48,829 nucleotides of DNA. Source: Rhizaria sp. SCN 62-66. Lineage: Eukaryota. Made by a program: the position numbers and the translations under genes. Numbering within the stretch: position 1 is the first letter of the stretch; every line of letters begins with the position of its first letter. The notes beneath the pieces were generated by a model. The model searched no databases. It worked only from the letters and a program-made list of their open reading frames with translations, and was not told where the DNA came from. This document shows positions 1,350 through 48,385 of the stretch, in pieces. The DNA lies in NCBI GenBank assembly GCA_001724265.1, contig MEDY01000218.1, positions 1 to 48,829 of the forward strand, in the 5' to 3' direction.

Positions 1350-4300
1350 TTAGACGGCGCCCGCGAGCGCGAGCAGCGCGGCGGCGACGGCAAACAGGGC
1401 GGCGCCGGCGGCCGGCGCGGCGCCGCGCGCGGCGGCATTGCTCTCGCTCACGCCCGCGCAGTGCTGCGGCGGAACGGAGTAGCAGTAGGGCTTGGTGAAG
1501 TCCGGCTCGACGACGGAGCGTGCGTGGCAGCTGAGGAACTTGTCGAAGCCCGGGAGCGCGCCGACAAACATGTCCTCCAGGTCCTGCAGCACGGCCTGCG
1601 TGGCGGCCGCGGAGCCGGGCTCCAGGTCCGCGGGCGGCGGTGCCACGGCCTGCATGCCGCCATTGTTGTTGAGCAGAGCCAACAGCGGCGGGTTGAGGTT
1701 CAGCGAGCGCAGCGTGGCGGCCAGCGCGACGCGGCCCGCGGCCGTCAGCGAATTGGGCCGCACCATGAACACGGACCCGGGCGCCGTGGTGCGGCCGGCG
1801 ACGGAGGACGTGGTGAGCTGCGAGACCGTGCCCAAGCGCGCGGCGGGGAGCAGGTCGCACCACGAGGGCCGCACGCCCGCGACGACGATGTCGCCCACGC
1901 GGCCTGCCTTGCTGTACGGCGTGTTCGCGCCCGTGCCGCAAATGTTGTCGTAGGTCGTGTTGCGCACGAAAGCGACCTCGCACGCGCGCTCGGCGAGCCC
2001 GCGGAGGGCGCCGATCTCGCCCGCGTAGCGGTTGTAGCGGGAGCACGTGAGGACGGGTGTCGTCGTCGACGCCGGGACAGACACCACGGGGCCCGTCGCT
2101 GGGCTCTTGACCGTGATGAAGGACGAGTTGAACGTCGCGGGGCCCGCCTCGGAGAAGCACAGGTCGCACAGCCCCGTGTCCCGGTCGTTGTCGGGCGGCG
2201 CGCACGACGCCTTGAAGAAGCCGCGCATGGCCGCGACGAGCGGGCTGTGGCACGCGTCCACGACGGTTTGGCTCGCGTCGGTGACGGGCGCCGTGTCGAC
2301 GTCGAAGCCGGTGTCGGTGCTCTCGCTGCGCGCCCACGCCATCGCGAGCAGCGACGCTGAGGCCGAGAAAGAGGCGTGGCAGGACCGGAGCCCGCGTAGG
2401 TCGGCGAAGGTCGTCGTCGCCGGGTTGGTCGGGAACGGGCCCGCGACGTCCACGCCCGTGGGGTCCGTGGTGCGGTACAATGCCACCGTGTGCACGATCT
2501 CGTCCTGCGCGGACGACAGCAGCGAGTCGTCCAGTGCGGCCAGCTTCGCCGTGGCCGTGAACGCGGCCTTGGCGCCACCGGCCAGCGCGGCCGCGGCCGC
2601 GGCTTCGTAGCGCGCCCACCCCGCGTCGGCGCGGCGCTGGGCGCGCGTGAGGCTCATCACGGCGTCCGCGACGGCCGCCACAGGCGCAGCCGGCATCGCC
2701 GTGGCCGGGGCAGCCGCGCGAGACTCGGAGGCGGCGCTCGCAGAGGTAGCGAAGCCCGAGGGGTCGATGTCGGCGACTGCGCCGACGATGCTCGCGCGGT
2801 CGTTGACGGTGTCGGAGTAGGCCTCGGAGCCCTCGAGCGCGAAGACGGTGAGGCCGAGGCGCAGCGCGGCCAGCACGGCGGTGCCCGAGTCGACGGCGAC
2901 GACGTCGGTGAGTCCGCGGTACACGTCCAGGAAGGACGCCGAGAGCGCCGAGGCGCCGCCGACCGAGGCCTCCTCGGAGATGGTCTGCGGCACCGCGGCC
3001 TCGAGCGTGACGAGCGCGTTGGTCGAGGCGAGGAACTGGCCCAGGAGCAGCGCCTGCGACGGCAGCAGCGAGCGCGCGACGCCGAACCGGATCGGGTCGG
3101 CAGACGTGCCGATGCGCGTGTTGGCGCAGTCGGTGGGCGGGTAGTTGCCGGTGACCGTGTTGCCGTCGCCCCACACGCACGCGCCCTCGGCCGCGCAGGC
3201 CACGGTGGCGTTGACGCCCGCCATGGTCTGCACGCGCGTGTAGTAGCTGCCCACGGAGAGGTGCGTGTACATCGCCTGCTGCAGTCCCGTGAATGCGTTG
3301 GAGCCGAAGTTAGCGCTGCCCATGCTCGTGATGGAGCCCGCGGCCGAGCCGTCGGGCGTGGCCATGCCCGTCGCCAGCGGCTCATACCGCCGAAGCATTG
3401 CCATGTAGGTCCCGTTACCCGAAGACCAGAAGCTCGTGAGCGCGATCTGCAGCTGCGCCGCCAGCGCCGCGCCGAACGAGTCGGTGCGAATCAAGAAGCC
3501 CGCTGAGGGCACCACGGGCGCGGGCTTCTGCGCGTCGGCAAAGAACTCGGCCAGCGGGACCACGTTGCGCCACGACACGCCGTTGGCGCACCACGTGGGC
3601 GCCGTGTAGCCCGTTCGCGGCTGGCACGCGCGCGCCAGAGCGGTACGCTCGGCGACAGCGACGTCGCACACGCCGTCGAGCAGCCCGCGCAGTGCGCCTT
3701 GCGTCGACGCGTAGCCGTTGCGCGCGGAGCAGTCTTGGCGGCCGACGGCGGGGCAGATAGAGCAGCGGCCCACGTTGCCGGTCTCGCGCGGCGGCGAGCA
3801 GGTGCGGAAGAAGAGCCCGTCGACCATGGCCTGGTAGGGGCTCGTGCACGAGTCGGCGGGCTGGCCGGTGGGGTAGGCCGCGTTGCCGCCGGCCTCTTCA
3901 AACGCGAGCTGCAAGCGCAGACTGGCCGTGGAGAGCGTGCGCCCCCACTCGAGCGCGGCCGTGGTGGGCGCCGAGAGCAGCTCGCCGGTGCACGCGCGGA
4001 AGCCGGCGAGCTGGTTGAGCGTGGTGAAGCCCGACGCCGCGCGCACAAACGCGACCACCTCGCTCTGTGGCTTCGACGCGGGCTGCAGCGCCGCCGCCAC
4101 GTCGTAGTCGGTCGTCTGCGACAGCGCGGCGACCGAGAGCATGACGGCGCCCTGGAGGCGCCAACCGAGGTAGCCTGCGAAGGCGTCTCCCCAGACGACG
4201 TCGGCGGCATAGGTCTGGAGCGCCACGAGCGGGGTCGACGACGCGCGCACGGCGCGCAGCCGCAGCGTCGAGCTGGGTGTCGAGCTGCCGGGCGCGGCCA

Positions 4301-7300
4301 CGGTGTCGAAAAAGTCCTGGTAGGCCGCGAGCTGCTCGTCCGTGGTGAGCTCGGGGACGCCCACGCGGATCTCGCCCTGCAGCACGACGATCGACAGCGA
4401 CGTGGTGACCGAGCCACCGGTGTTAGCGCCAGTGATGGTGTAGGTCACGGCCGTCTGCGAGCGGCGCGGCGTGCCGGCGATGACGCCCGTGGTCGCGTTG
4501 AGAGTGAGCCCCGTGGGCAGCGCGGGCAAGACCGAGTACTCGCGGATGGGCCCGCCAGTGGTGTCGACGACGGGCACCAGCGCGGTGATCGCGGAGCCGG
4601 TATAGTACGTCGCCTGCGGGATCGTCTCGGCCGCCGCGAAGGCCGCAGTCATGCGGCCCACGGAGGCCGGCAGCAGTGACAGCAGGCCAGCCCCCACGGC
4701 CGCGGCCGCGGTCGACGCCGCGGCAGCGAAGCCGCCGCTGCCGAAAACGTCGCCGGCGCCGTGCACCTCGAGCGCCGAGTCAGCAGCCGCTGCAACGGCC
4801 GCGGGTGAGACGGAGGAGGGCGCGGAGGCGCGCGTGGCGCGCGGCGCGGCGGCGGCCTGGAGCGCGAGCGCGTCGGCGGGCAGCACGTAGTAGAAGCCCG
4901 CGGGCGGGCGGTCCAGAATGGTGATGTTGACCGTCTGTGTGTAGGTCCCGCCGCCGTTGCGGCACGTCACGGTGTAGGTTGTGAGGGTCTGCGCCACAGT
5001 GGGGTGGCCACGGAAGGCACCGGTGGTGGTGTCGAAGGTGACGCCCGCGGCCAGCGTCGAGGCCAGCGGCGTGATAGCGCAGGAGCGGATCGGGCCTGCG
5101 GTCGGCATGGGCAACGCGACGGGCGCGTTGGTCACCATGCGCGTGCCGTCGGCGATCGCGTAGTAGTCGGGGTACGCGTACGTGAAGGACGGCGGCGTCT
5201 CGGTGGTGAAGGGCCACGCGTTGGCGACGAGTCCCGGGAAAAAGTTGCCGGCCAGGTCGACGATGGCGTAGGGGTCGACGACGACGTAGACCTGCGTGGC
5301 GGCGGGCAGGTCCCACGGCGGCCAGATGTCGAGCGTGTCTGCCGCGGGCTGTTCCACGTTAGCCGTCACTGTGAGGTCGATGCGCGAGATGAGCACGTTG
5401 TCCGCCGCGCGGTACACCGTCACGAAGCGGCGCGTCGAGTTGGCGGGCGTCGAGCCGGGCAGCGAGGGCTGCGCCGCGCGCGCCTGAGCGTCGGTCGCGG
5501 GCAACACGGCCTCCGAGAAGACCATGATGAGCGATGTGAAGATGTCGACGTGCGTGGCGTTGACGGCGGGCGACAGTGTCAGCGCAGAGGGCGGCGTAAA
5601 GTCGCCGACTGTGAAGTTCCAGCCGCTGTGCGCGTAGGCCACGCCCGTGCCGAAGCCCTTGAATGTGTTGCCGGCGAGGTCCGCGAAGGCGTAGACGGTG
5701 GGGCCCGCCGAGACGGTGATGCGCACAAAGGTGAGCTCGGGCAGCAACGTGGTGACCGACACGGAGACGCTCTTAGTGCCGTTGCCGGTCACCAGCGACG
5801 AGTTGCCCAGAGAGACCGTGGCGAGCGTGGCGCCAGTCGCGCCCGTGCCGGTGACGAGCGAGACCGTGAGCTCGCCGGCCGTGTTGACCAAGACCGGCTC
5901 GTCGAAGGTCAGCACCAGCACGGGCTGCTGCGGCGCGTTGGTGGACCGTGTGGCGGGCACCAGCGCCGTGATCTGCGGCGGCGTCAGGTCCACGGTGGTG
6001 AAGCTCCACGCGGCGCACGTGGTGACGGCCTCGAAGGTGTTGCCGACGGCGTCGCGCACCACGCCGGCGTCGATGAGCACGCAGAAGACGGTGCTGTCGG
6101 TCAGCGGCTCGTTGCCGTAGTTGGCCGTGATCAGCGTGATCTGCAGCGTGGTCGAGCCAAAGCCCGAGGCCGCGGCGGCCGCGATGGCGCGCACGACAAT
6201 GCCGTCGCTCTGGCGCACGACGCGGTAGTAGGCCGACACCGCCGAGGTCGAGTACACCACCTCGGTGAAGGTGATGGTCAGGTTGGTGTTGACGGCGACC
6301 TGCACAGCCGCGTTCGCGGGCACGGTGACCGAGAGCTGCGGCGGCGTGAAGTCACCGGTGCGGAACGCCCAGTCCGTGGTGGCGCTGTAGCCGGCCCACG
6401 CGTTGCCGGCCAGGTCCGTGACGCAGCCGCTGTCGGCGAGCACGTAGTACTGGGTCAGGTCGAGCAGACGCGTGTTGAGCAGAAAGCCCAGCGTGGCGGT
6501 GCCCTGGCCCGAGATCGAGGGCGAGAGCGCCGTGCACTGCACCGAGTCCGCGAGCGAGTTGTCGCTGGCCAGGTAGAAGCGCACCGAGCCCGTGGCCGAG
6601 GCGGGCACGGTGACCAGCTCGGAGAAGACGAGGAAGTACGAGCCTGACACGGGCGCGGCCTGCGAGCCCGAGGCCGGAACCTGAGTGATGACGTACGGTG
6701 GCGTCGTGTCCACCGTGGTAAAGTACCACTGCCCCGACGTCGTGCCCAGGTAGCCGTTGCCGTACGCGTCCTGCCAGGTCCCCGCCGCGATCACAACGGT
6801 CAGCACCGCCGAGTCTGGCCACAGCGCGGGCGAGTTGCTCACCGTGATCTCGGTCGTGCCCGACCCCGTCACCGCCGCAGACGGCACCGCGATTGCGGCC
6901 AGCAGCGCGCCAGTCGCGTTGTTGAACACGCGCACCGAGCCCGACGCGTCGTTGACCAGCTTGTTGAAGGTAAGCAGCAGCGTGGCGTTGAGCGCGATGT
7001 TCACGGCGCCGATGGGCGGCACGTAGGTCACGACCGCGGGGGGGGTGAAGTAGCCCGTGGTGAACTTCCAGCTGGTCGACGAGAGGAAGCCGGCGAAGTA
7101 GTTGTTGGAGGCGTCGCTGATGGCCGAGGAGGGGACCGTGACGTAGAATAGCGTGCCCTCGGCCAGCGTGCCCGAGAGCGGCACCGACAGCGTCGCCGAG
7201 CCCGTGCCCGTGGCCGTGGACAACTGGATCGTCTGCACTGCCGCGCCCGAGGACGCGAGGAAGATGGTCAGCACGCCGCCGCGCGTGTACACGGGCTCGT

Positions 7301-10300
7301 CGAAGGTCAGCACCAGCGGCGCCGTGGTCGAGGCCCCCGTGGAGGCGTTGGCCGGCGTCAGCGATGTGATCACGGGCGGGGTGTTGTCCTGCACCGTCCA
7401 GTACCACGTCGTGGTCGCGGTGACGCCCGCGAAGGCGTTGCCGGCCAGGTCCACGACGGCGCCCGGCGAGATGAGCACGTAGTACTTGGTGAGATCCGCG
7501 AGCGACACGGTCATCTGCACCATGAGCTGCGTGCCAGAGTTGGTGCTCGACTGCGCGGCACCAACGAGAGTGACCGCCGAGGACGCGACCAAGAAGGTCT
7601 CGATGACTGCGCTGTCGTTGGCGCGGTAGACGGTGATGACGGGCCCCGTGGCGTTGGTCGCGTCGGTGGTCTTGACGACGGCCTCGCTGAAGGTCATCAG
7701 CAGCGTCGGCAGCGGGCCCACAGTGGTGGACGCCACCGTGGGCTGCACCGAGGTCAGCGTCGGCGGCGTGAAGTCGCCCGTGCGGAACGGCCACGCCGTG
7801 GCGCCCAGCAGCCCGGGGAAGACGTTGCCCGAGGCGTCGGCGAGCGCAGCAGAGGAGACGGTGATGTAGTACTTGGTCTGCTCCAGCAGCGTCGAGTGCG
7901 CGATGCGCAGCGTGTCGTTGGTTAGCGTCGTCGTCGCGAGCGTCAGCGACGGCGAGGGCACGGTGAAAGCGTTGACCGTAGCGCCCGTGGCCTGGAGGAA
8001 CACGGTCACCACGCCGCCCGTGCGCAGCACGATCAGCTCATCGAACACCAGCGTCGCGGGCCCGCCCGTGGACGCGGAGGTCGCGCCCACCGCGGGCAGG
8101 TAGACGATGACGCGCGGCGGCGTGAAGTCGCCCGTGGAGAAGGGCCAGCGCTCCTTGCTGGCGATGCCGGCGAACCAGTTGCCGGCCATGTCGGCGAAGG
8201 CGTCGGCATCGATGAGCACGTAGTACTTGGTCGAGTCAGCCAGCAGCATGTTGGGGTTGATGTCCACCGTGTGTGTGCCCGCGTACGTCGTCTGCGTCAC
8301 CAGCGGCGAGTCGGCGCGGATCTGCGTCACCAGCGTGTTGTTGTTGTACGTGTACAGCTTGATGTACCCCGTGCCGTACGTGACGGGCTCGTTGAACACG
8401 ATGACCAAGTGTGTGTCGACGGCGTTCCCGGTCGAGTTCTCCCGCGGCACAACCTCGATAATCACCGGCGGGTCCGTGTCGATCGTGGTGAAGTACCACT
8501 GCGACGCCGTCGTCGTGCCCACGTAGTAGTTGCCGCTGGCGTCCGCGAACGAGTCCGAGGACACGAGCACGTACAGCCGCGTCGACGACGGCAGCGCCGC
8601 GGAGGGCGTGATCACCACGGTCATCGACCCGGAGCCCGTGACCGCGCTGGACGCGGTCTGGATCGTCTCGACGAGCGCGTTGGTGTCGCTCTTGTAAATG
8701 GCGATCTTGCCGGTCGAGTTCGCGTGGACGTACACGACCTCGTTGAACGCGATCGACAGCGTCGCGTTGACGGCGACGCCGGTGGCGGCAACCGCGGGCG
8801 TGAAGGTCGTCACCAGCGGCGGCGTCGTGTCGATCGTGGTGAACGTCCACTCGGTCGTGTTGGTGATGCCCGCGAAGGGCCGGCCGAGCGAGTCCTCAAA
8901 GGCGTTAGGGGACACGAGCACGTACAGCGTGGCCAGCTCCGGCAGCGCTGTCGCGGGCGTAAGCGTGATCACGGCCGTGCCAGACCCGGTGACCTGGCTC
9001 GACGCCACGTCGATGCGCTGGACGAGCGTGCCGGCTAAGGCCCCCGTGGCGTAGTAGATGGACGTGTACAGCCCGCCCGTCGCACGCGGCCGCACGACCT
9101 TGCTGAAGGTGATGCGGAGCACCGAGCCCTTCTGGACGTCGGTGGCGCCGGGTACGGGGTAGAGCGCGGTATAGTAGGGCGGCGTCTTGTCGCCCGTGGT
9201 GAAGGACCATGTCGCGACCGAGGTGACACCCGCGAAGGCGTTGCCCGAGAGGTCGAGCACGGTGCCCGCCGAGATGAGCACGGAGTACTGCGTCAGGTCC
9301 ACGAGAGCCACGCTGCGCGGGACCGTCACGGTCGCGGTGCCCCAGCCGGTGGCGTTGACCGTGGCCAGGTTGATGGTCTCGACCAGGACCTCGTCGCTTC
9401 GGCGGACGATGCGCAGCGTGCCCGCCGTGGAGGGCCCCGCCACGACGGGCTCGCTGAAGGTCATCACCAGAGGGTCCAGCAGCGCGACGTCGACGGCGCC
9501 CGCAGCGGGGACCGTGGCCACCAGCACGGGCGGCGTCGTGTCCACCGTCAGGAACGTCCAGGCAGTCGCAGTCAGGAAACCCGGGTGGTAGTTGTTGGCG
9601 GCGTCGCGGAACACCGTGGAGCCGAAGTTGACGTAGTACCGCGTCGCCTGCAGCAGGTCCGCCGAGAGGCCGATGGGCAGCGAGAGGATCTGCGTGCCCT
9701 GGCCCTGCACGGCAACTGTGGCGACGTCGACCGAGGCAACCACGGAGCTGTCCGAGGCGCGGCGCAGGTAGATGAGTCCCGTGCCCACCCAGACGGGCTC
9801 GTCGAAGGTGATGGCGTAGGTGCGGATGGTGATGTCCACGTTGACGCCGTTGAGCGGCGGGGAGGCCGAGACTATCACGGGCGGGTCGTCGTCGCGAGTC
9901 GTGAAGGTCCACGCCGTGGGCACAGACAGCCCCGCGAAGGCGTTGCCGGCCAAGTCCGTGAAGGCGTCGGCCGCGACCAGCACGTAGACCTTGGTGAGCG
10001 AAGGCAGGCGCACCGAGGGCTGCACGGTCAGCGTGGACGTGTTGGCGCCCGCGAAGTAGCGCGCCTCGATCGTGTACAGCAGCGAGTTGTTAGCGAAGGT
10101 GTAGACCGAGACGAGGCCGGTGCCGTTGTTCGCGGCCCGCGCGAGCACGGGCTCCGAGAAGATCATCGTGAGGCGCGTGGCCGTGGGGACCGAGGTCGAC
10201 AGCGACGCCGGGTCCGTCGCGATCAGCGTCGGCGGCGTCGCGTCGGCCGTGCGGAACCGCCACGTGCCGTTGCCGGTGAAGCCCGCGAACACGTTGCCTG

Positions 10301-13256: not shown

Positions 13257-14184
13257 CGTTGGCAGTCGGTCTGTCGCCGTCACGTTGTCTGTGTCAATGT
13301 GTGTGTTTCTCTGCAGTGGGTGCAGTGTGTTGTGTGCAGTGTGCAGTGACTGGCTGCAGGGAGCGGGCAGTCGCTGGGGCAGAGCCGCGCCGACGCGGGG
13401 GGTTGCTGGAACGCAAGTGCGGGACGGGGCGTGTGTCGGAGGCGCCGCAAGGGCGGCTTCAGCGCGCGGGAGAACGGTCAGCAGGGAGGGGCGGTGCCCG
13501 AGGGATTCAAACGCGAACGGGCGCTGTGCGAAAGCGGCGCAGAGCGGGGGGCATTTGAGTGGCATGGCAACAGAAGCGGGGTGTGTGTACGTTTAATGAG
13601 CGTTAAGCGCGTTGAGGCAACGAAAAAATGGGTTATGGTAAGTATGCAGCAGGGAACGTTCAAGAATTGTCAAGTTGGGAGATCGCCACTGCACTCCAGT
13701 TTGGGTGAGGGCACGCGAGGAGTTGTATCGGCATCAGACGCAAGATTCAAAAAGAACAATTTTGATTTCAAGTAATTCGCTATGAGATCAAGTGGTTCTG
13801 GTCATTTTTCATGCAAGTGACGGTTCAGGTCCCGCGTAAGTTTGAATTTCAGTGAGAGCAAAGTTGCCTCTCGACCCACATTTTTCGGTCCTGCTGTGCT
13901 GCCTTGAACTTCTGGCTCAGAATGGGACAAAGGAACCGAGATCTATATCACTGATTTGGCACGTATCATGTTCGTCTGAGAACGTGTTGTTGTTTTTTCA
14001 GTCAAAGCTTACTATAATTTATCTTATTTGTGCATTTTATTTGCCTTAGTTAGTTGTAACACTTGTAGAGCAACCCCGGTAGTTCCCGCTTTTGACCAGA
14101 GCAAAAAGGTTTGTTCCCCTGACTCTAGCCCTCTGGGCGTCTTGATTGCACTCGTCGTTCGGTTCTGCGTCTGCGCGCGCACCG

Positions 14185-17018: not shown

Positions 17019-17049
<31 letters not shown>

Positions 17050-34288: not shown

Positions 34289-34924
34289 GGCGCGTGAGCA
34301 CGCGTGAGCGCGAGCAACTTGTGTGTGATTGGGGCGAGCTTTGGCGTTTGTTCGTGGGGTATTTATGAAACATAAAAAATATTAATTTATTGTAGTCTAC
34401 ATAGTTGTACAATGTATCTTTGATAATAAAACAACATTGACACCAAAAATAATCAAAGAACGCTAACAGCTGCTTACGAATATGGTCTAATCCGTTTAGA
34501 TTGTATTCTTCATAATTATCATTCAATTAGACGTATATATAACCACTCTAATTCAGCTATTAATAATACAACAACTTCCTCCCGCCATCGTCACCCTCGC
34601 CCTTCTCGCTGCACAATGAGTCATATTACGCTGCCCACGGTGAAGCCGCCCACCCGCAACACGCACAGAGCCCCCTTGCAGAGCAGAACTCATCACGAAC
34701 ACAGGTCAAGGCAGCCAAGCAGACAGTCGCATGGTACTCCCGCACGCTGGCACGGCGGTCACTGCAATTCTGAGTCATGGGTGCTAGTCTGAATAATATA
34801 CATGCTTGTTGCGCTGCTTGCTTTAGTTGGCGATTGCTAGCCAGTTTGCTCGCTCGCCTCTCTGCCTGCTCGTTTTCGCTTCGTTTGCGTGCTCACGTCG
34901 TTAGTGAGATCATAGCTTACGCGC

Positions 34925-35836: not shown

Positions 35837-36224
35837 TTATCTACAGAAAAACAACAAAATACGCGAAAAAGAATAATATGAGACAATAATATAAACCATT
35901 TTCAAAACAAATTCGCTTTCGCACCCCTAAAAACCTTTTATTAGAGCCAGTAAAAGGTTGATAAACCTCGCATTTGTCATGAGCCTCAGCGATATAAATT
36001 CTGCCACCACCACCAACCACCAGCCACCAGCCAAAATGAAGCCGCAGCGAGTTGTGGTCAGACTCGAAATTGGATGCATACGGCGCTCAAGTCAAGGGCT
36101 TTTGCGATAAATTTGTGATATAATGTGTGAACAAAAATGTTGTATGATGTGACTGCGATATTATCAGCCTTAAATAGGTTTAACGCAAGATACCCGCGCT
36201 TAATAAATAGTTGTCTGCATGTAC

Positions 36225-39200
36225 TCAGTCGTACTCGGGATACCCGTGCGCATGCATGCCGTCCTCGTACACCGCGCTCCCAAAGCCGCCCGAGTAGGAC
36301 AGCCCCAGTCCGTCGTCGTCCTCGTCATCTTCCTCGGCGCCACCGCCGCCGCCGCGCAGCAGAGCGTCGCGCCCGCCTCTGCCGCCACCGCCACCATCCC
36401 GCAAGCCATCACGACCAGTGTCGCGGCCGATGTCGCGGCCGGCGTCGCTCCAGCCGCTGCCGCTCACGCCGCTGCCGCTAACGTCGCTGTAGCGGCGCCG
36501 CAGCCCGGGCGCGGGCCCCCGCGCGGCCCAGCCCTCGCCCCAGCCCTCGCCCGCGGCCGACGCAGAGGCAGACAGGTCGCGAGCGGTCGACGGCGCAGGT
36601 GCAGTCGAGCGCTGCTCGCGGGCCGCCGTCGCAGCGGCCGCAGCAGCCACGGCCGCGGCAGCCGCAGCGGCCGCCGCGGCCGCGGCAGCCGCGGCGGCCC
36701 CGGGGGGCACCACGTAGCGACTGTAATACCCTGGCGTCGCCGTTCCCACCGCGGCGCTCACGCCGGCGCCTGAGGCCGCGGTCGGGGCGCGGCCTGAGGC
36801 GGAGCCGGCGACCGAGGCGGCGGCGCTGAGGGCGGGGGCCACGGAGCCCGCGGCCACGGAGCCCGCGACGGAGACGCCGGGCCGGTAGTGGTGGCTGCGG
36901 CCCACGCTGCGCGCCACGCTCGGCGCAACACTTGGCGCGACACCGGGGGCGCCAGCGACGGCGCCGTAGCCGTTGTGGCCGTTGTAGCCGTTGTAGCCGT
37001 TGTAGCCGTTGTAGCCGTTGTAGCCGTTGCCGTTGCCGTTGTACGGGGGCGCGTAGCTGCGGACGCTGGCGGCGGCGCTAGCTGCGACCGCGGCGGCCTC
37101 GGCGGCGTCGGGCCCCGCGGGGGCGTAACGTCGGCCGCCCGCGACAGAGCCCGCGACAGAGCCCGCGACAGAGCCGGCGCCCGCGACAGCGCCAGCGACG
37201 GCGCTAGCTCCAGCGCGCGAGGCGGCGACGGAGGCGGAGGATGAGCCGCGGAGTCCACTCACAGTGCCGTTGGCAGCATGCGTCTGGAAGGCCGAGGGCG
37301 CGGCGGCGGCGGCGGCGACGAAGTGGGTGACGAGGAGCTGGATCTCGCCGTCGGTGAGGTCGGCGCGGCACACGGCGCACGCGAAGTCCACGAAACCAGA
37401 CAGCGTCACCGGCTAAAGCAGAACAAGAGCGAAATATGACAGAAGATCCAAAAATGGCATGTAAGAGATAAGAGTACATCAATAAAGTGGAAATTGAATA
37501 ATGATAGGACATTTGAAGAAAAAAGACTGTCACGTACCGCGTCCTTGTCGATTTTGCGGAACTGCGCCGCGGTGGGCGCCTTGCGCATCGCGCTCCACAC
37601 TGACACCGCGAACGCGCGCTCCGCCGCCGCCACAGACGCCGCGGACGCGGGCGCTGGAGAGGCGGGCGCTTTGGCAGCCGCTGCCGTCGTCGTCGCTGCT
37701 GTTGACGTAGCCGTTGATGTCGCACTCGTCGGGGGCGTTTGTTGCTGCTTACCTTGCTGTTGCGCCAGCTGCCGCTGCTGCTGTTGTTGCAGCCGCTGCT
37801 GCTGCTGCCTCTGCTTGGCCTCCTTGGCGGCAAAGGCCGCGGCCGCCAGCACGGCCCCCGCGGCGACGCCCAGGCCTTCGTCGCCCGCGTCCAGCAGGAC
37901 TACGCTCACAGTGCCAGGCGCAGTCAAAGCGCCGGTAGCGCCAGTGCCAGGAGCTGCAGCCGTCGCCGTCGCACTGCGTGAGGGCGCAAGGCCGTGGCCG
38001 GCGGGGACGAAGGGCAGGCCGAGCGCGAACGCGGTGGCCCTCGCCAGGGCGTCCAGCGTCGCCGTCACGGACGCATTCATGTGCGTCGTCATCTGCGTTG
38101 CCAGCTTGGCGGATACCGTCGCCCGCGGAACCAACGCCTGCGCCTGCGCCTGTGTCTTTGTCTGAGTCTGGGTCTGGGCCTCTGATTGTGACCGCGGCTG
38201 TGTCTTGGCGTGACCCTGCGGCTGAGAATGCGAGTGCTGAGACGTCGCCGGCGTCGCGGGGGCCGCGTTGAGGGGGTGGCGGCCCAGCCTCCTGAAGGCC
38301 GGCAGCATCGCGACGGCGTCGTGGGCGACCCAGTAGCCCCAGACGGCGGCCTCCACGGCGTCGCGCGGCCGCCACCCGCACCGGTGCCCGCGCGCGCGCT
38401 GGCGACGACGGCGCTGACTCGCTGGGCCGAGTGGGCTCAGGGGGCTAGCGTCTGCGTCTGCGTCTGAGCCAGAGTCGGAGTCGGAGCAAGAGCATGACAG
38501 TGCGTCGCTTTCGTCCCCAGCGCCAGCGCCAGTGTCAGAAGCAGAGCCAGAGTCGTCAGACCCCGTCTCAGAGCTGGAGCCGGAGCCCGACTCCGAGTCC
38601 GAGTCTGAGTCTGAGTAGCCGAGTCCTAGTCCGTGGCCCGCGGTGGGCGCGCCGCCGGGAGCGCCGGGCGCGCGCAGCGCCGCCGCAACCAGGCTGCCCG
38701 TCGCGCTGCCTCTTCCTCTGCCCGCGCCACCACTGCCGCTGCCGCTGCCGCTGCTTCTGCTCGCGCCGTTCGCATTGACACTATTGGCGGCAGCGCCGAC
38801 GCGGACGCCGCCGTCGCGGACGCCGCCGCCCCGGAGGCTGCCGCTGCCGTACCCGAGGCCGCCGGCGTTGTTGTGGTGGCTGCCGCCGGCGTAGCTCGCG
38901 CCGCTGTAGACGGGGCCGCTGGAGACGGGGCCGCCGCGGACGCTGCCGCCGCGCACGGAGCCGCCGCGGACGGACCCCGACGCAGCAGCAGCGGCCGCAG
39001 CGGCAGGGGCAGTGGGAGAAGCGGCGTTGGCGTGGGACGCACTGAGCGACGGCTGAGCGGGCGACGGCAGAGCGGGCCCGTAGGGCTGGTGTTGGCCTGT
39101 GTAATGCTGGCTGTGACTAGGGCCGGAGTGCTGCTGGTGCCTGTGACCGTGGCCGTGCGTTACCGAGTGCGCGACGGAGTGCGCCACGGAGTGCGCGCGT

Positions 39201-39858
39201 GAGGGCGCAGGAGCCGCGGGGGCCGCAGAGGAGCGGGCCGCGGTGCCGGCAAGCGGGGGCGGCGCCGGCGTCGACACCGGCAGCGGCAGCGGCATGTGCG
39301 ATGACAGGGAGAGCGAGCGGAAGGCTCCAGCCAGCGCCAGCGCCGACACGGAGCGCGAGATGACGCCCAAGTTGTCGCTGTGAACGACGAAATAAAGGAA
39401 TGCATGACACAAATAAAGCACGTGAGAAATATAACAATGAACTGAGAGAACTACGTATTATTTAAATGCCATACTAAGATATTAACTTGATTTCATCCAT
39501 TTTACGCGAGGTGCGCATTCGTACCTGTCGATGCAGGAGAAAATGAGCGCGAAGGCGACGCGTTTGCGGGCCGTGGCTTGCGCGACGTGCAAGTCCAGGT
39601 CCGTCACCGTGCGCTCCAGCGCGCTCGCACGGGCTGTAAAAGGGCAACAAGCAAGGGGAAGTTGGGGGGAAGTGAGTGAGGATGGAGAACAGGAGATATA
39701 GATGAGCAAAATGAAGCGCAACAGTGGAATGACGAATGTTGCGGCTACGGACCTTCGACTGCCAGGACGCGCTGCTCGAGGCGTTTGGCAAGCGTCGATG
39801 CACCGAGACCCCAAGCAGTGGCCAGCAGTGCAATGCCCCACGGCAGCATGGTGGTCAT
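36225..39858 (-). CDS. Low-complexity protein with N-terminal hydrophobic helix, coiled coil and degenerate EF-hand-like motifs; exons 39858-39753, 39633-39525, 39377-37538, 37412-36225
   Basis: Three GT-AG introns (GTCCGT, GTACGA, GTACGT donors) give a phase-consistent frame: MTTMLPWGIALLATAWGLG..LEQRVLAVEARASALERTV..IFSCIDSDNLGVISRS...FRKIDKDAPVTLSGFVDFACAVCRADLTDGEIQLL...; TGA stop. Confidence 0.72.
36965..37042 (-). repeat. Coding 9-bp tandem repeat (AACGGCTAC)n encoding Asn-Gly-Tyr
   Basis: About 7 copies of gtagccgtt on the + strand, translating YNGNGNGYNGYNGYNGYNGYNGHNGYG. Confidence 0.9.
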
Positions 39859-40272: not shown

Positions 40273-40326
40273 AATCGCCCCAGGTTGGTGGGTTGTGGCC
40301 GACTCTCGCTCTCCCAGTCTTCCGCG

Positions 40327-43300
40327 ATGCCATCATTCAGCCTGCCTTTTGTGAGCGCCAACACGCTCTCCAGCGGTTCCACTTTCGGTTTTGCTGCGGC
40401 CTGTGCCGACGACGTTGCCGTCTTCTTCGCCCCGCAGCTGTTGCCCGACCCCGCGCCTCTCCCGCTGGCAGAGCACAGCCATGGCGCGCAGTCACTCCCA
40501 GCTTCCCAGCACGCGCAGCAGCTCTCTTCAGCTGCAACACAGTGTTCGCCGCCTGCGCATGGCGCTTTGACGCTCTCTGCGACTGCGTTGACACCCGCGC
40601 TGGCGCAGTATGGCCCGCAGCGCGCGCCGCCCGCGCCGCTGGACGAGGTGCTTGCTGTGGCCGCGGCGGGGCGAGTCCTCGCCGTCGTCCGCGGCGCGCG
40701 CTGCGAGCTCTACGCCGCGCCCGCATCCGGCGACGCCGCCGCGGCCGCCGGGGACGTGCCGCGGCTGTTTTGCGTGCTGCCCGCGGCCACAGCGCCCCGC
40801 TGCGTCGCGCTCTCCACGCCCCTCACACTGCCGCCCCCTCCAGATACTGATGCCGCTACGAGTAACGCGTCGGCAGCGGTCGCTTCAGCGGCGACAGACG
40901 CAGCAGATGCTGCCGCCGAGAACACCAGCGTGCGCGGCGTGCTGCTGGCGCTGGGCTCGGCGGACGGGGTGACAGTCTGGGCCCTTCCTCTGCCGCAGGC
41001 TCTGCTGCCGTGCACAGGCGTGCAGTCGTCCTAGTCGCACTCGCCGTCGCAGTTGCCGCTGCCGCGACCGTGGCGCCTCGGCTCCTGCTGCCGACTGCGG
41101 CTTGTCGTCGCGCTCTCCTTCGCCGCGCGCGCCCCCTGGGCCGGCAGCGAAGCCGAGACGACGCGCACCGGGGCTGACTCTGGCCTCAAGGCTGCACGCA
41201 CGGCTGCGCACCAGGCCGCTCACAATGCCACTTACAGTCACTGCTCCGGGCTCGATCAGTTGGCGCGCGCGCAGGCGGGGCTGCTGGCCGTGGCCTGCGG
41301 CGACGGACGCGTGTGCGTGGTCGACGCGCTTGCGGCCCCCTTGGCCGCGGACGCCACCGAGCACCACAGGCCCTCTGACCGCCTCACTTGTGCGGTGTCG
41401 CCCGTCGCAGCTAGAGCGCCACCAGCTGTCGGCGTATCGCCTCTTGTCGGCACGGCGCCTGCGGTGGTGTGGTGCTCCCAGGACCCCGCGCTGCCGCCCA
41501 CGGTCACCGAGCTCACGGTCTCCGTCAGCGCCGTCTGTGCCGTTGCTGCGCCTGCCGCTGGCGGCAACTGCAGCAGCAGCAACAGCAACTGCAGAGACGA
41601 CAACAACGCTGACTCTGATTCTTTGTCTGCGAAAGCTGCTCCGACAAGTGTGATCGCGAGCGCTCGCATCGCTGCCGTGCCCGCAGGCCTCGCCCCCGCA
41701 GCCGCGACCAGCTCCACTGGCGCCGCCGCGGCCGCCGCTGTGGCCGCCGCCGCAGCGGCACCCGCGCCGCCGCCGCCCGCCGCGGCCCTGCAGCGGCTGC
41801 TGCGCCTCTCAGTCCCCGATCCGGACTCGGACTCCGCGCTTCTGGACGCCGACGCGGGCAGCGGTGGCGGCGGCAGCGGCACAGCGGCGCAGGCGGCGCG
41901 CGCGCTGCGGGCGCTGGCACTGTCGGCCGCCGCGGCAGCCGCGGGCGCCGCTGGCTTCACGGCGGCGGCCGATGCCTATACCGCTCCGCCGTCAGCGCCA
42001 GAGGCTGCGCCTCCGCTGCTGCCGACGCCGCCGGACGCACTGGCGCCGCTGCCATCCTCGGCGTTGCCCGTGGCCGTGGCGCTCTACGTCGACTGCCCGC
42101 GGCCGCGCGCGACGGCGCCCGCGGTGACGCTGCTGGCAGCGTGCAGCGAGGGCGGCGTCCGCGCGTTCGGCTCCTGCGGCCTCGGCCACGGGCACGGACA
42201 TGGCAGCGACGACGTGGACGGCCTGACCGCGCTGGAGCGGGCGCACGCGTCGCGCCGCGCGCTGCAGCTCTGCGCCCTCGTGCGGCCCCTGCTGCCCCTG
42301 CGGCCCGCGGCCTCGCGCGGCGCCGCTGCGGGCGCGCCGGCGCTCAGTCTGATGGCGCACCGGCCGTGGGGCGTCTGCTCGCACGCGCCCTGTCGCGTTG
42401 TCATCGCCCATGACGCCGACGCCGACGCCGGCTGCGACACCGATGCGAAGCTATGGCTGTCTCGTCGCGGCAGCGCCCGCGGCACTGCGCCTGCAGCCAC
42501 AGCCACAAGTGCCGTCACGAGTGGCAGCGCGGACTGCGGCTCTGCGGTGGCCGCCCTGCTCAGCGCCCTCGCACCCGCGCCCTCCGCCCTCGCGCCCGCG
42601 CTGGCGCCCGCGCGCCCCCGCTGCGCCCCGCTCTCCGCCCAGCGCGCTGCCGCGACCTCACAACAGTACGCGGCGCCCGTGCCCGCGGCCGAGGCGCTAC
42701 CCGCGCGCGTGCTGCTCGCGCCTTCGGGCCGCGCCGCCGCCATCGCGCTCACCACGCTCACGCGGCCCCCGCGCAGGCGCTGCAGGCGGCTGTGTGCGCA
42801 GACCGGCGCAGAGATGACACCTGAGACCGCGACAGAGACCGAGACGGAGACCGAGACCGTGAGCGCAGAGGTGCTGGCCGCGGCTGCAGCCGCGCTGCGC
42901 GCGCACCGGCCCTGGCTCGACGCCGCCGCCGCTGCCGCAGCTACTGGCTCTGGCACCGGCGCCGGCATCGGCTCTGGCACCGGCGCTGGCGCTGGCGCGA
43001 CTACAAGCAGCGCTACGGTTGAAGCTGAAGCAGAGGCGGCGGTCGCGGCTGCGCTGGCTGCGGCGGCGGCGCGCGCGGCCGAGCCAGGTTCTCTCGCGGC
43101 CTCCGCTGCCTCTGCCGCGGCCGTGGCCGCCGCCTCGGCCGCTGCAGCCGCTGCCGCAGCTGCGGGGCCCGCTGCTGTGGCTACGCGCGCGTCTCAACTC
43201 AGCTGTGGAGCCAACGGCGATGGCGGCAACTGCGACTGCTCCCCTGACGGCGACGGCGACGGCGACGACGACGGCGACGGCGACGGGAGGCCGCAGCACT

Positions 43301-43590
43301 GGGTCATCGTGCGCCGCGCCCCCGCCCTCTCCCTCGCCGGCCTCGCTGCCAGCGCTGCGCAGACCGCGGCCGCGGCTGAGAGCGCGGCCGCGGTCTGGCT
43401 GGGTCCCTTCGCGTCCGCGGTCGTCGGGATCGCCACGCTGCCGCTCCCGCTGGCGCAGCTGCGGCCCAGCCGCGGCGGCGGCGGCGCGGCGGAGCGCAGT
43501 CTGCCTGCGGAGAGCAGCGTGCCGGTGCTGGTGGTGGCCGACGCGGGCGGCCGCGTGAGTCTGCACGCATGGCCGCGCAACGCGTGGTGA
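40327..43590 (+). CDS. Ala-rich protein with degenerate WD40/beta-propeller-like strands; one in-frame TAG at 41032-41034
   Basis: ORFs 40285..41034 and 41053..43590 share a frame, separated only by the TAG and 6 sense codons. Propeller-like segments LLALGSADGVTVWAL, LLAVACGDGRVCVVD, LLAACSEGGVRAF, LVVADAGGRVSLHAW; TGA stop. Confidence 0.62.
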
Positions 43591-44319: not shown

Positions 44320-44397
44320 TCATAGCTCGGAGCGGAGCAGCGCGGCGACGTCGGCGTCGTCGATCGCCTGCGCCGCGGGCACACTCGCAGGCGCCGC

Positions 44398-44463
<66 letters not shown>

Positions 44464-44994
44464 CTCGCCCGCAGTGGCAGCGGCAGCGGCCGTGGTGGTG
44501 GCCGCGGCCGTGACCGCAGCGGTTGCGGCCGAGAGGACGGCGGTCTGCGTCGAGGGGAAATAGCGCACGAGCAGGCCCAGCGCCTCGCGCGTGTGCCAGC
44601 CGTAGGCAAGCCCGGCCATGTGGAGCGAGGCGTAGAGCACGCCGACGGTGATGGTCGCGAAGGGGATGAAGCGCGTGGTGAACTTGGTCGAGTTGAAGAG
44701 CAGCACGCCGCTGAGCCCCAGCGCGAGGACCAGGGACGGCAGCGGCTGTGCGTGCCAGCGGATCACCAGCACGGCGATCACGACGCTCTGCAGCAGCGAG
44801 GGCCGCAGGAAGAAGTGCTTGGAGAAGCGGAGCAGCTGCGGGCCCTCCTCACGCTCGGGCACGGGCGTGCCGTACATGGCACGCAGCTTCTCGCGCCGCG
44901 CGTCGAACGGGGACATCTTCAGGCCCAGCAGCCCGAAAAGAATAAAGCACGCCGCGTACAGCGCGGAGAAGGAGAACAACGTCTCTGTGTACAT
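44320..44994 (-). CDS. Small multi-pass membrane protein with poly-Ala tail; 5' end uncertain (possible upstream exon)
   Basis: About 4 hydrophobic segments (FSFSALYAACFILFGLLGL, SLLQSVVIAVLVI, LPSLVLALGLSGVLLF, FIPFATITVGVLYASL). Acceptor-like CCTGCAG just upstream of ATG 44994; TGA stop. Confidence 0.65.
44399..44462 (-). repeat. Perfect (GCT)~21 trinucleotide microsatellite encoding poly-Ala
   Basis: Uninterrupted (agc)n on the + strand. Confidence 0.95.
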
Positions 44995-45846
44995 CCCAGA
45001 AGGGCTGTCGCTGCAGGCGGGCACGGCACACAGGGTAGAGAAAGCGGTTGTGGTTAGAAAAACAAACAAGGTCATTGTGGGACTATTTGCGCGGCTTGAA
45101 TAAAATGGCAATAATATATTATACTAAACAAATGTTTCTATCTATATTGCGTAGTAAGTGTCTATTTTGACGATTACAGCAAGAAATAACTGACTTCCGT
45201 TGAAAATGCTCGGTCAGGGTTGGCAAGACGACTCCAACCCCGCACGAGCTAGGGGGCGACGAATGCATCGTATTTGAGCGAACACCGTTGCTGTGCTGGC
45301 ACCGTGATACGCTTAATCCGTGTAACCGAGATGCCTTAACATGTTTCCTTTTTAATATCTTGTGGAAGCGTTGTTGCCGCGCTCTGGCGCCTCCGACAGT
45401 CTTCCCTGGTTTCGCTTGAGTGGCGCTTCGTCACAGACGTCCTGCCGCGCGATATCACGCTCCAAACTGAATGTTGGATTGTGAAAACGTCTAAATTGGC
45501 TTGACCCATGTGTGTTTTCCTGTCCTCTTTTCTGGCACAACATGGCAGCGTGCGTTGCTTGTGCACCAAATCCCCGTTTGCTCGCGGCATTGGTGCTCGT
45601 TTTTTCATGCTCGTTTTTGATGACGTACACCGCTACTCTTCCGTTGCGCAGCACCTTTTAACGACTGGAATGGGCGTTCTTAAGAAGTTTTCTTGATACC
45701 CGTGTTGTATGCCACCCTATTTCAGGCTTTATTTTTCCCGCACTCATGTTTACTCTCCGTTTTCCGTCCCTTTCATCTCTGTCCCTCCTTGTCTCCGTCG
45801 TCGTTGCTTGGCTCTCACCCGTTTGCTGCGCAGCTTGCTGCCCCCC

Positions 45847-46404
45847 ATGGCGACGGACTACACGGACGAGGACAAGGAAATCATCCGCTTTACGCAGGAG
45901 CACATCGAGTCCCTCAAGGCCGGCTCGACGCCCAACATCGTCTTCCACATCGCGCGCTCGAAGAACCGCAACATCGTGATGTACGAGGCCAAGCTCGACG
46001 CGGCGGACCCGGCCAAGTTCGCGGCCGAGCCCATCGACGGGTACTGGCACGACATGGAGCCGTCCTACCAGGCGATCTCGCGCAAGAAGGGCATCATGCA
46101 CGACCGCGTCGAGATCTCCTGGATCGAGCACAAGATGGCCTACGGCTTCGCGCCCACGCTCGTCGAGGACGGCGCCGAGGTCGACCTGGCGCTCGTCGCG
46201 CTGCCCTCGCGCGTGATGCGCCTCAGCCTGCGCGACGGCAAGCCCGTGGGCGTGGCTGAGGTCTCGGGTAAGCGCTGCACCGTGCAGTTCATCTTCGTAA
46301 AGTCGGTCGAGCGCACGCTGCTGCCGCCTAAGTGCATCTACGTCGACCTCTACGGCACCGACCTCACCACCGGCGAGACCGTCGTCGAGCGCATCACCCC
46401 CTAA
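45847..46404 (+). CDS. DUF4833-like protein (185 aa)
   Basis: Strong codon bias from ATG 45847; VFHIARSKNRNIVMYEA...PIDGYW...EISWIEHKMAYG...IFVKS...P.CIYVDLYG.D..TG..V.ERI matches my recollection of the DUF4833 pattern; TAA stop. Confidence 0.75.
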   Translation: MATDYTDEDKEIIRFTQEHIESLKAGSTPNIVFHIARSKNRNIVMYEAKLDAADPAKFAAEPIDGYWHDMEPSYQAISRKKGIMHDRVEISWIEHKMAYGFAPTLVEDGAEVDLALVALPSRVMRLSLRDGKPVGVAEVSGKRCTVQFIFVKSVERTLLPPKCIYVDLYGTDLTTGETVVERITP

Positions 46405-47195: not shown

Positions 47196-48385
47196 TCACG
47201 CGCCGGTGTCGCCGGCGACGTCCTCGGGGACGAAGAAGACCTGGACGACGTTGTCTTGTCGCACACGCATGTCGGCGAGCGTCAGTGCGTCGTCGTGGGC
47301 CGCGTAGCCGCGCACGACGACGCGCTGGCGGTGCGGCGGCACGCCGAACTTGGCCCGCACAAGCCGGGTGAGGTCCCGCCTCGTCGTCGCCGCGGGCGCC
47401 TCCACGGTCAGGCGGCCGCCCGAGGAGGCCAGCACAGTGAAGCGGACCAGCGGGCCGGCGGGCACGGCGACGGCGCTCGCGGGCACGCACGCGGGGGCCG
47501 GGGCCACCGTCGCGGCGGGGGCAGCAGCGGCGGCAGCAGTCTGGCCGTGGAGGCGGCCGTAACTGCTGTTGTAGTCGGGGGGTGGTGCCGAGGGATGGCC
47601 GGTCTCGGCGGAGGCGCCAGCGGGCGCGCCGCGGGCCGGGGAGGGCGCCACGGACGCCATGCTATGGCTCGACGGGAAGCCAGCAGCAACAGCAGCTGCA
47701 GTATTGGTGGGAGCAGCAGAGACGGGCGAGGACACTGAGTCAGGGCCGCTGCCGCTGCCGTTGCCGTTGGTGGGCGAGCTGGACGAGAGGACGCCGTCGA
47801 GCGGGATGGCGTTGGAGGGGTAGGCGACGATGACCCAGGGCACGTCGTAGCGCGCGCCGCGGGCGTCGTAGCAGAAGAATCCTGTCTCGGAGGGCAGCAG
47901 GGGCGTTGCGCCGATGCTGTTGAGCACGAGTCCACGCGTGACGTCGTCGTGGCACGTCACGGCGAGCTGCAGCCCGCTCCAGAACTGGCGGACGCCTGCG
48001 CGGGGAGCAGCGGGATAACGGAAGCAGCGAGAGGCGAGAGGCGAGGCGAGGCGAGGCGAGGGTGAGCGATTGGACTTGAACTAAAGGAGGAGGGAGGAGA
48101 CAATGCAGGAGACAATGCAGGGGCGACTAAAGACGGACCTTGTGTGCGCGTATCCCAGAACGTCTCACGCTCCCGGTCGAGCATGGCAATCGAGAGCACG
48201 GGGCAGCGCGCGTCCCAGCCCAGCGGCGGGGTCGGGATCGAGACAGGCGTGTCGACGGGCACGGGCGCCAGTCCGCCGACGTGAGGGCCAGGCGGCTGTG
48301 CAGATCGGGCCGGAGATCCCCCGTGGTGATGCGGACTGCGTTCCTGAGGAGCAGTAACGTTAGCCGATGAGCTAGAACACCCCAT
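47196..48385 (-). CDS. UBTD2: Ubiquitin domain-containing protein (UBTD1/2, DC-UbP family); exons 48385-48139 and 47995-47196
   Basis: MGCSSS acylation motif; LDRERETFWDTRTQG|VRQFWSGLQLA; CYDARGARYDVPWVIVAYPSN; C-terminal ubiquitin-like domain (GVPPHRQRVVVRG...DDALTLAD). GTCCGT...GCAG intron 48138-47996 is phase-consistent. Confidence 0.85.

What the first reader, a model, noticed from the sequence alone, without database searches (positions are those of the whole stretch)
1350..48385. Stop-codon pattern suggests UAG may not be a stop in this organism
Seen: the 13 complete gene models end in TAA (1350, 18183, 18477, 26068, 34925, 46404) or TGA (28470, 28886, 34288, 36225, 43590, 44320, 47196) and never TAG. 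The two long frames that break without an intron both break at a single TAG (21270, 41032), and I saw no equivalent in-frame TAA or TGA. Known: UAG-only reassignment is rare but documented in nuclear codes (Leu in a rhizarian, Gln in Iotanema, some ciliates). Inference: a variant code with UAG as a rare sense codon, suppressed by GC bias. Caveats: 13 stops is a small sample, both TAGs lie in non-conserved linkers so the amino acid cannot be read off, and both could be single base errors or nonsense alleles (GAG>TAG; TCG or CAG>TAG).
Basis: partly seen in the sequence, partly recalled or inferred. Interest (0 to 1): 0.78.

Follow-up and report, generated by a model that had tools for sequence, protein, structure and literature searches.

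The report
Possible non-stop UAG in wastewater eukaryote
In this stretch of an uncultured, GC-rich flagellated eukaryote no gene ends in TAG, and two genes carry a TAG in the middle of clean coding sequence, which fits either a rare change of the genetic code or two young nonsense mutations, and this window cannot tell which.

Summary
All 13 listed terminators are as stated, and I found a 14th gene ending in TAA, giving 7 TAA, 7 TGA and 0 TAG. In 12,975 in-frame codons the only stops are the two TAGs at 21270 and 41032. Both lie in unbroken coding signal, far from any AT-rich spacer or intron.

They are not sequencing errors. Another run's contig reproduces site 1 exactly. Protein fragments ending at each TAG occur on 3 and 6 contigs, and in slightly different strain variants.

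About 71% of random nonsense changes here would give TAG. GC bias predicts roughly 30 TAGs if TAG meant Gln, not 2. Known UAG-reassigned eukaryotes carry internal UAG in most genes (PMC5304391, PMC11687900).

By intergenic composition, 0 of 14 TAG terminators has p of about 0.03.

No genome, tRNA, eRF1, close relative or RNA across the sites could be obtained.

My odds: about 0.5 that UAG is translated and not used as a stop, at a rare-use stage. About 0.38 that these are two fixed young nonsense mutations under the standard code.

The parts
21270..21272 (-). In-frame TAG no. 1. It follows a run of seven Glu codons (GAG GAG GAG TAG CGG GAC) and is codon 520 of a 1,450-codon frame.
   Evidence: Searches show the sequence and frame. 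GC3 of 0.88-0.99 runs unbroken from 18520 to 22840. A contig of runs X2/X3 covers 21153-22969 with 0 differences. The 519-aa fragment ending here is on 6 contigs, and a variant (518 of 519 identical) has the same length.
18477..22829 (-). Gene 4: an N-terminal part with no known family (519 codons), then the TAG, then 930 codons with ankyrin repeats. It ends in TAA at 18477.
   Evidence: Pfam finds Ank_2 at 3.5e-20 in the downstream part and nothing in the upstream part. GC3 is 0.94 upstream and 0.91 downstream. The first ATG after the TAG is 121 codons on, at 20906.
41032..41034 (+). In-frame TAG no. 2 (TCG TCC TAG TCG CAC), codon 236 of a 1,087-codon frame.
   Evidence: Searches show the sequence and frame. 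The codon log-odds favour the same frame on both sides. The 235-aa fragment ending here (P0003) is on 3 contigs, and a variant (231 of 235 identical) has the same length.
40327..43590 (+). Gene 12: an Ala-rich, low-complexity orphan that ends in TGA at 43590. There is no ATG, only GTG or TTG, in the first 200 codons after the TAG.
   Evidence: No Pfam family. The only hits among 1.84 billion representatives are its own N-terminal piece and a 121-aa protein 47% identical to residues 988-1084. GC3 is 0.76 upstream and 0.82 downstream.
1350..13565 (-). Gene ending in TAA (giant protein with 22 Big_5 repeats).
14185..18183 (+). Gene ending in TAA.
   Evidence: The exact protein is on 6 contigs.
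23261..23782 (-).
   Evidence: GC3 0.86.
24425..26068 (+). Radial spoke head gene ending in TAA.
   Evidence: PF04712, 1.7e-101.
26650..28470 (+). Gene ending in TGA.
28886..29731 (-). Pyrroline-5-carboxylate reductase gene ending in TGA.
30176..34288 (+). Class I aminoacyl-tRNA synthetase gene ending in TGA.
34925..35836 (-). tRNA-binding domain gene ending in TAA.
36225..39295 (-). Two-exon gene ending in TGA. Its intron (37413-37537) is 125 nt, GC 0.34, and runs GTACGT...TTTAG.
44320..45075 (-). Gene ending in TGA.
45709..46404 (+). DUF4833 gene ending in TAA.
47196..48080 (-). Ubiquitin-like gene ending in TGA.

Best explanation
In this uncultured eukaryote, UAG is not used to end genes, and the two internal UAGs are translated. 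The organism is 68% GC, flagellated and found in wastewater and bioreactors. Translation would come either from a tRNA that reads UAG (a CUA anticodon, or an efficient near-cognate such as tRNA-Gln or tRNA-Glu) or from a release factor that recognises UAG poorly. Genes 4 and 12 would then be made as full-length proteins of 1,450 and 1,087 residues. UAG use is very rare, at 2 in 12,975 codons and only in unconstrained linkers. If this is a reassignment it is therefore at an early or low-efficiency stage: UAG has been lost from terminators and is only starting to reappear inside genes. Shown: the stop census, the coding continuity across both TAGs, and their recurrence across assemblies and strains. 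Inferred: that ribosomes pass these codons. Unknown: the amino acid inserted. Site 1 lies in a Glu run; site 2 lies among Ser and Gln codons.
For: (1) 0 of 14 terminators are TAG, where 22.3% would be expected from intergenic composition; P = 0.029.
(2) The only in-frame stops in 12,975 codons are two TAGs.
(3) Both lie in continuous coding signal. GC3 is 0.88-0.99 from 18520 to 22840, and the same frame scores best on both sides of 41032. Intergenic spacers in this window are 430-1,060 nt at 44-54% GC, and none lies near either TAG. The one clear intron is 125 nt at GC 0.34.
(4) The downstream parts cannot be separate genes with ordinary starts. The first ATG is 121 codons after TAG 1, and there is none in the first 200 codons after TAG 2.
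(5) They are not errors or rare alleles. The X2/X3 contig is identical over site 1. The fragments ending at the TAGs are on 6 and 3 contigs. Variant strains (518 of 519 and 231 of 235 residues identical) end at the same residue. For gene 12, no longer, read-through version exists among the 1.84 billion representatives.
(6) The base after the stop is G or A in 11 of 14 real terminators, but C and T after the two TAGs.
(7) Precedent: UAG-only reassignment with UAA and UGA kept as stops is documented (PMC5304391, passages read; PMC11687900, abstract and section 10 read).
Against: Only 2 of 15 genes carry an internal TAG. There is none in about 10,000 codons of the other 13 genes, which include the conserved ones. 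In known UAG-reassigned eukaryotes 78-91% of genes hold one (PMC11687900, section 10), and counts are 384 in 71 genes or 204 in 126 genes (PMC5304391). GC bias does not explain the rarity: a TTG/CTG ratio of 0.09 applied to 355 CAG predicts about 30 TAG for Gln, and the rarest G-ending sense codon, AGG, has 15. Both sites are in non-conserved, low-complexity sequence, so no amino acid can be read off. 71-72% of random nonsense hits would be TAG anyway. A sample of 14 terminators is small. No tRNA or other RNA family lies in the window. No eRF1 and no whole genome are available. No RNA contig across either TAG was listed.
Confidence: 0.5

Rival explanations
1. The code is standard. Both TAGs are real, fixed and young nonsense mutations (for example GAG>TAG and TCG or CAG>TAG) in two fast-evolving, low-complexity, dispensable genes. 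The genes are now truncated or young pseudogenes. The downstream frames are still open only because stops arise slowly in such GC-rich sequence. The lack of TAG terminators among 14 genes is chance.
For: 71-72% of single-base nonsense changes of this codon set give TAG, so two TAGs are unremarkable. After a nonsense hit the downstream frames stay open with P = 0.64 at 1% neutral divergence and 0.41-0.43 at 2%. Both genes are orphans with no Pfam family in the interrupted regions and no homologues. Gene 12 has the weakest codon bias of the set (GC3 0.76 and 0.82), and its N-terminal piece differs at 4 of 235 residues between strains. The P5CR variant differs at 1 of 281 residues, the last one, which the BLASTP alignment leaves out (280 of 280 aligned residues identical; change at 28890). 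TAG density is far below every documented reassignment (PMC11687900, PMC5304391). P(0 of 14) = 0.029 is not extreme.
Against: It needs two independent recent knock-outs among 15 neighbouring genes of a compact genome. Each must be old enough to be shared by variant strains and by every assembly seen, yet young enough to have no second lesion. It also needs the 0-of-14 coincidence. Gene 4 has full-strength codon bias on both sides of its TAG (GC3 0.94 and 0.91).
Confidence: 0.38
2. The code is standard, but these two codons are bypassed at the RNA or ribosome level. Possibilities are site-specific programmed read-through or RNA editing of UAG to a sense codon. The example of A-to-I editing UAG>UGG in some fungi is recalled, not checked here.
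For: The sites lie in continuous coding sequence and are conserved across strains. The base after each TAG is a pyrimidine, which is generally a weaker termination context (for the bases; the effect on termination is general knowledge).
Against: The 123 nt starting at each TAG fold no better than shuffled sequence (z = -1.07 and -0.59). The contexts TAG-CGG-GAC and TAG-TCG-CAC do not match the read-through motifs I recall. This explanation does not account for 0 of 14 TAG terminators. No RNA evidence at the sites could be obtained.
Confidence: 0.08
3. Artefact: sequencing or assembly error, a hidden intron removing each TAG, or wrong gene models (two genes abutting at each TAG).
For: By eye, a 15-nt in-frame GT..AG segment can be drawn over each TAG. 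The gene models come from sequence signals only.
Against: The same stops occur in other runs' contigs and in variant strains. The only clear intron is 125 nt, AT-rich and starts GTACGT, and no AT-rich dip lies near either TAG. All other gene boundaries have spacers at 44-54% GC. The frames have no ATG soon after the TAGs.
Confidence: 0.04

Closest known systems
UAG-only stop-to-sense nuclear codes: rhizarian exLh (UAG=Leu) and Iotanema spirale (UAG=Gln) (PMC5304391, passages read)
   Same: Terminators are only UAA and UGA (56/15 and 104/15 there; 7/7 here). In-frame stops are UAG only. These are non-ciliate flagellate or amoeboid protists.
   Different: Those organisms have 384 UAG in 71 genes and 204 in 126 genes, many at conserved Leu or Gln positions, supported by transcript reads. 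Here there are 2 in 15 genes, none at a conserved position, and no transcript evidence. No tRNA or eRF1 data are available here.
UAG reassignments in phyllopharyngean ciliates (UAG=Leu or Gln) (PMC11687900, abstract and section 10 read)
   Same: UAG alone is changed. Some cases were discovered in metagenome-derived genomes.
   Different: There, 78-91% of genes hold an internal UAG and suppressor tRNA genes were found. Those genomes use UAA as the main stop (92-98% in four of the five reassigned species). Here the genome is 68% GC, TAA and TGA are used equally, and TAG is about as rare as the rarest sense codon (ATA, 2).
Young unitary pseudogenes or nonsense alleles under the standard code
   Same: A single premature stop, one base change away from common codons (GAG, TCG, CAG), in poorly conserved genes.
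   Different: There are two in 15 adjacent genes. Both are fixed in every assembly and strain variant seen. No second lesion is present, and TAG is absent from all 14 terminators.

Membership tests
Nuclear code with UAG reassigned to sense (UAA and UGA kept as stops) | UAG is absent from bona fide terminators | tested here: met
   0 of 14 terminators are TAG (7 TAA, 7 TGA). The sample is small: P = 0.029 under a 22.3% share.
Nuclear code with UAG reassigned to sense (UAA and UGA kept as stops) | In-frame UAG is widespread in coding sequences, including conserved genes | tested here: not met
   2 of 15 genes and 2 of 12,975 codons. There is none in the Big_5, aaRS, radial spoke, P5CR, tRNA_bind or DUF4833 genes.
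Nuclear code with UAG reassigned to sense (UAA and UGA kept as stops) | UAG positions align with one amino acid in homologues | tested here: inconclusive
   No homologue spans either site. Both sites lie in low-complexity linkers.
Nuclear code with UAG reassigned to sense (UAA and UGA kept as stops) | The in-frame UAGs are real in DNA and in transcripts | tested here: inconclusive
   DNA: met.
Nuclear code with UAG reassigned to sense (UAA and UGA kept as stops) | A cognate tRNA(CUA) and/or altered eRF1 | not testable with these tools
   No tRNA or Rfam hit in the window. No genome is held. Neither eRF1 family was among the Pfam hits of the 16 long frames scanned.
Pseudogene or nonsense allele | The lesion is polymorphic or accompanied by further disabling changes | tested here: not met
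   The same stop is present in every contig and variant seen. There are no other in-frame stops, and the frame is kept downstream. A very young fixed lesion is not excluded.
Programmed stop-codon read-through | A stimulatory downstream context or RNA structure | tested here: not met
   Folds of the 123 nt starting at each TAG give z = -1.07 and -0.59 against shuffles. No recalled read-through motif follows either TAG.
Spliceosomal intron covering the TAG | Resembles this organism's introns | tested here: not met
   The only clear intron is 125 nt, GC 0.34, GTACGT..TTTAG. No low-GC dip lies at either TAG.

The most novel reading that the evidence does not exclude
This may be a natural snapshot of an early stage of stop-codon reassignment in a GC-rich, non-ciliate flagellate. 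UAG would already have been purged from terminators and would no longer be read as stop. It would so far have re-entered coding sequence only at a handful of unconstrained positions, about 15 times rarer than mutation bias alone would allow. That is the 'codon disappearance then capture' intermediate that theory predicts. I found no report of such a stage for a eukaryotic nuclear code in the listings of the three searches on genetic codes.
Probability: 0.3. Interest if true: 0.85.

Novelty: new member of a known kind. Interest (0 to 1): 0.5.

Why it matters
UAG-only changes of the nuclear code are known from very few lineages, mostly ciliates. A case in an uncultured, GC-rich flagellate from engineered water systems would add an independent origin. 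Because UAG use is so sparse, it could show what the early phase of a reassignment looks like, which bears on the codon-capture versus ambiguous-intermediate debate. On the practical side, gene callers already split both genes at the TAG (P0003 and P0006 in public protein collections). If the code differs, this organism's proteome is mis-annotated. If the rival explanation is right, the finding is ordinary: two young nonsense mutations and a small-sample coincidence.

Tried and rejected
The whole genome is not held.

Homologues spanning the TAGs: three word-index searches gave nothing at E <= 0.001; each reported that only the roughly 8,000 candidates sharing most words with the query were scored. 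I suspect low-complexity words crowded out true relatives. The exhaustive search for gene 12 found only its own N-terminal piece and one 121-aa C-terminal relative.

Relatives' loci: the metagenome scan with the aaRS returned 29 loci. One is the same organism (L001, 99.97% identical to 33184-36842). The other 28 are 33-41% identical and not usable. Two scans of prokaryote genome contigs for a mis-binned copy found nothing.

A shared intergenic motif to fish for other contigs: no 12-mer or longer is shared by 3 or more spacers.

Reads: over site 2, and in the RNA runs over both sites, no covering piece was listed, so nothing can be said.

Exact look-up of the downstream piece of gene 4 from its three ATG starts: none is in the collection.

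AlphaFold2 of gene 12 with X at the TAG gave mean pLDDT 32, which is unusable. My impression of WD40-like blades on both sides of the TAG is unsupported, and Pfam finds no WD40.

Atlas look-ups gave no useful taxonomy. Earlier findings of this scan: none.

The idea of a 15-nt mini-intron was rejected.
Full report
WHAT THE WINDOW IS

The window is 67.5% G+C. Coding blocks of 65-78% GC alternate with spacers of 430-1,060 nt at 44-54% GC. It carries eukaryotic genes:
- a radial spoke head protein (PF04712, 1.7e-101)
- pyrroline-5-carboxylate reductase
- a class I aminoacyl-tRNA synthetase
- an Arc1p/EMAP-like tRNA-binding protein
- an ankyrin protein
- a 4,071-residue protein with 22 Big_5 repeats

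One clear spliceosomal intron is present: 37413-37537, 125 nt, GC 0.34, GTACGT...TTTAG. The DNA occurs in bioreactor, wastewater and activated-sludge runs, including a poly(A) RNA library. No whole genome is held. I therefore read it as a contig of an uncultured, flagellated, intron-poor, GC-rich eukaryote. Its lineage could not be placed.

CHECKING THE OBSERVATION

A 14th gene (23264-23782, minus strand, GC3 0.86) ends in TAA at 23261. The census is 7 TAA, 7 TGA, 0 TAG. TAG stands at 21270-21272 (minus) and 41032-41034 (plus). Across 12,975 in-frame codons of 15 gene models these two TAGs are the only in-frame stops.

ARE THE TWO TAGS INSIDE GENES?

Yes.

Site 1. Third-position GC of 0.88-0.99 runs without a break from 18520 to 22840, in the frame and strand of the ORF. 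The phase pattern is typical of the minus strand. GC3 is 0.94 upstream and 0.91 downstream of the TAG.

Site 2. The signal is weaker (GC3 0.76 and 0.82). Even so, a codon log-odds score trained on the other genes favours the same frame on both sides, with no frame switch.

Other points that apply to both sites:
- No low-GC spacer or intron-like dip lies near either site, while every other gene boundary has one.
- The first ATG is 121 codons after TAG 1. There is no ATG in the first 200 codons after TAG 2.
- The base after the stop is G or A in 11 of 14 true terminators, but C and T after the two TAGs.

These are therefore interruptions of single coding regions, not gene ends.

ARE THEY ERRORS?

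No.
- A 1,847-nt contig from runs X2 and X3 covers 21153-22969 with no difference. X2 and X3 come from other samples than the probable source X1. Their contigs are identical to each other, so they may be one data set.
- The 519-aa product ending at TAG 1 is on 6 contigs. A variant differing at 1 of 519 residues, from another source, has the same length.
- The 235-aa product ending at TAG 2 is on 3 contigs. A variant differing at 4 of 235 residues has the same length.
- For gene 12, no longer read-through version exists among 1.84 billion cluster representatives.

The stop triplet of the variants was not seen directly, only their identical ends. For site 2, and for the RNA runs at both sites, no covering contig was listed, so RNA support is unknown.

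(a) No TAG terminators. TAG is 22.3% of stop triplets in the window's intergenic DNA, so 0 of 14 has P = 0.029. That is suggestive only.

(b) Both breaks are TAG and none is TAA or TGA. With GC3 near 0.9, the codons one step from a stop are mostly GAG, CAG, TCG, AAG, TAC and TGG. As a result 71-72% of random nonsense substitutions give TAG. Two TAGs have probability of about 0.5 under plain mutation, so this argument is weak.

(c) TAG is a rare sense codon suppressed by GC bias. This does not fit the numbers. TAG ends in G, the favoured kind of third base. T-first and A-first synonyms are used at 9-13% of their C-first partners (TTG 56 against CTG 611; AGG 15 against CGG 112). TAG=Gln would therefore predict about 30 TAG beside 355 CAG, and only 2 are seen. 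Only ATA (2) is as rare.

(d) Comparison with known cases. Rhizarian exLh has 384 UAG in 71 genes, and Iotanema has 204 in 126 genes (PMC5304391, passages read). In the reassigned ciliates 78-91% of genes hold an internal UAG (PMC11687900, section 10 read). Here the figure is 2 of 15 genes, with none in a conserved domain. A mature reassignment is thus excluded. Only a rare-use, early or inefficient form remains possible.

WEIGHING THE TWO MAIN READINGS

Standard code plus two nonsense mutations. This needs three things:
- two independent knock-outs among 15 neighbouring genes
- each old enough to be shared by all assemblies and strain variants, yet young enough to carry no second lesion
- the 0-of-14 coincidence

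Simulation shows the downstream frames stay open with P = 0.64 at 1% neutral divergence, 0.41-0.43 at 2% and about 0.1 at 5%. The open frames therefore only limit the age of the mutations. Taking 0.3-1% of genes as carrying such a young lesion (my assumption, not measured), the joint probability is of the order of 1e-6 to 1e-4.

UAG translated and unused as a stop. This explains all three features at once, but requires an unprecedentedly low UAG usage and has a low prior.

My estimate is about 0.5 for translation of UAG and about 0.38 for nonsense mutations. About 0.08 goes to site-specific read-through or editing. The downstream folds are unremarkable (z = -1.07 and -0.59), and neither mechanism explains the terminator census. 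About 0.04 goes to artefact or a hidden intron.

The neighbouring genes are under purifying selection between strains: 19 synonymous, 10 non-synonymous and 7 non-coding differences. None of the laid stretch lay usefully downstream of a TAG, so the key test of constraint downstream could not be made.

WHAT COULD NOT BE DONE

- The window has no tRNA and no Rfam match.
- eRF1 and the rest of the genome are out of reach.
- No homologue spans either TAG.
- The AlphaFold2 model of gene 12 is unusable, with pLDDT 32.
- Earlier notes of this scan hold nothing on this genome.

VERDICT

Error is ruled out. The genetic-code reading is plausible but unproven, and in its 'GC-suppressed ordinary sense codon' form it does not fit the numbers. 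A census of terminators and a tRNA and eRF1 search on the organism's other contigs would settle it.

Noticed in passing
window 1353-13565 (-): A single uninterrupted 4,071-codon gene encodes 22 Big_5 (bacterial Ig-like) repeats (6.3e-203), with a weak transferrin-like match near the C-terminus (9.7e-08). This architecture is unusual for a eukaryote.
   Followed up: no
window 30688-30730 and 32845-32860: Contigs of the poly(A) RNA run X4 differ from the window in tight clusters of mostly third-position, synonymous changes within the aaRS gene. This suggests that a more diverged relative or strain is expressed in activated sludge.
   Followed up: partly
window, the 14 terminators: There is a strong preference for G directly after the stop codon (10 G, 1 A, 3 C), in the pattern TAA-G / TGA-G.
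   Followed up: partly
window 37413-37537 (-): The filter found only one clear internal intron in about 39 kb of coding sequence: 125 nt, GC 0.34, GTACGT..TTTAG. A second candidate (22805-22966, minus strand, 162 nt, GTACGT..CAG) lies at the 5' end of gene 4.
   Followed up: partly
window 30176-34285 (+); loci L002-L029: The class I aaRS begins with an Arg/Ala/Ser-rich N-terminal stretch that looks to me like an organelle presequence. Apart from the organism's own copy (L001), the matches in the metagenome collection are only 33-41% identical, so the organism has no close relatives there.
   Followed up: no
window 43288-43578 (+), residues 988-1084 of gene 12: The C-terminal ~100 residues of the orphan gene 12 are 47% identical to a 121-aa 'hypothetical protein' on a 16-kb JGI contig (P0004). 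This is the only sign of a relative for this gene.
   Followed up: no
window 45709-46401 (+): A DUF4833 domain protein (2.5e-23) sits in a eukaryotic context. I recall this family as mainly bacterial, but I did not check that.
   Followed up: no
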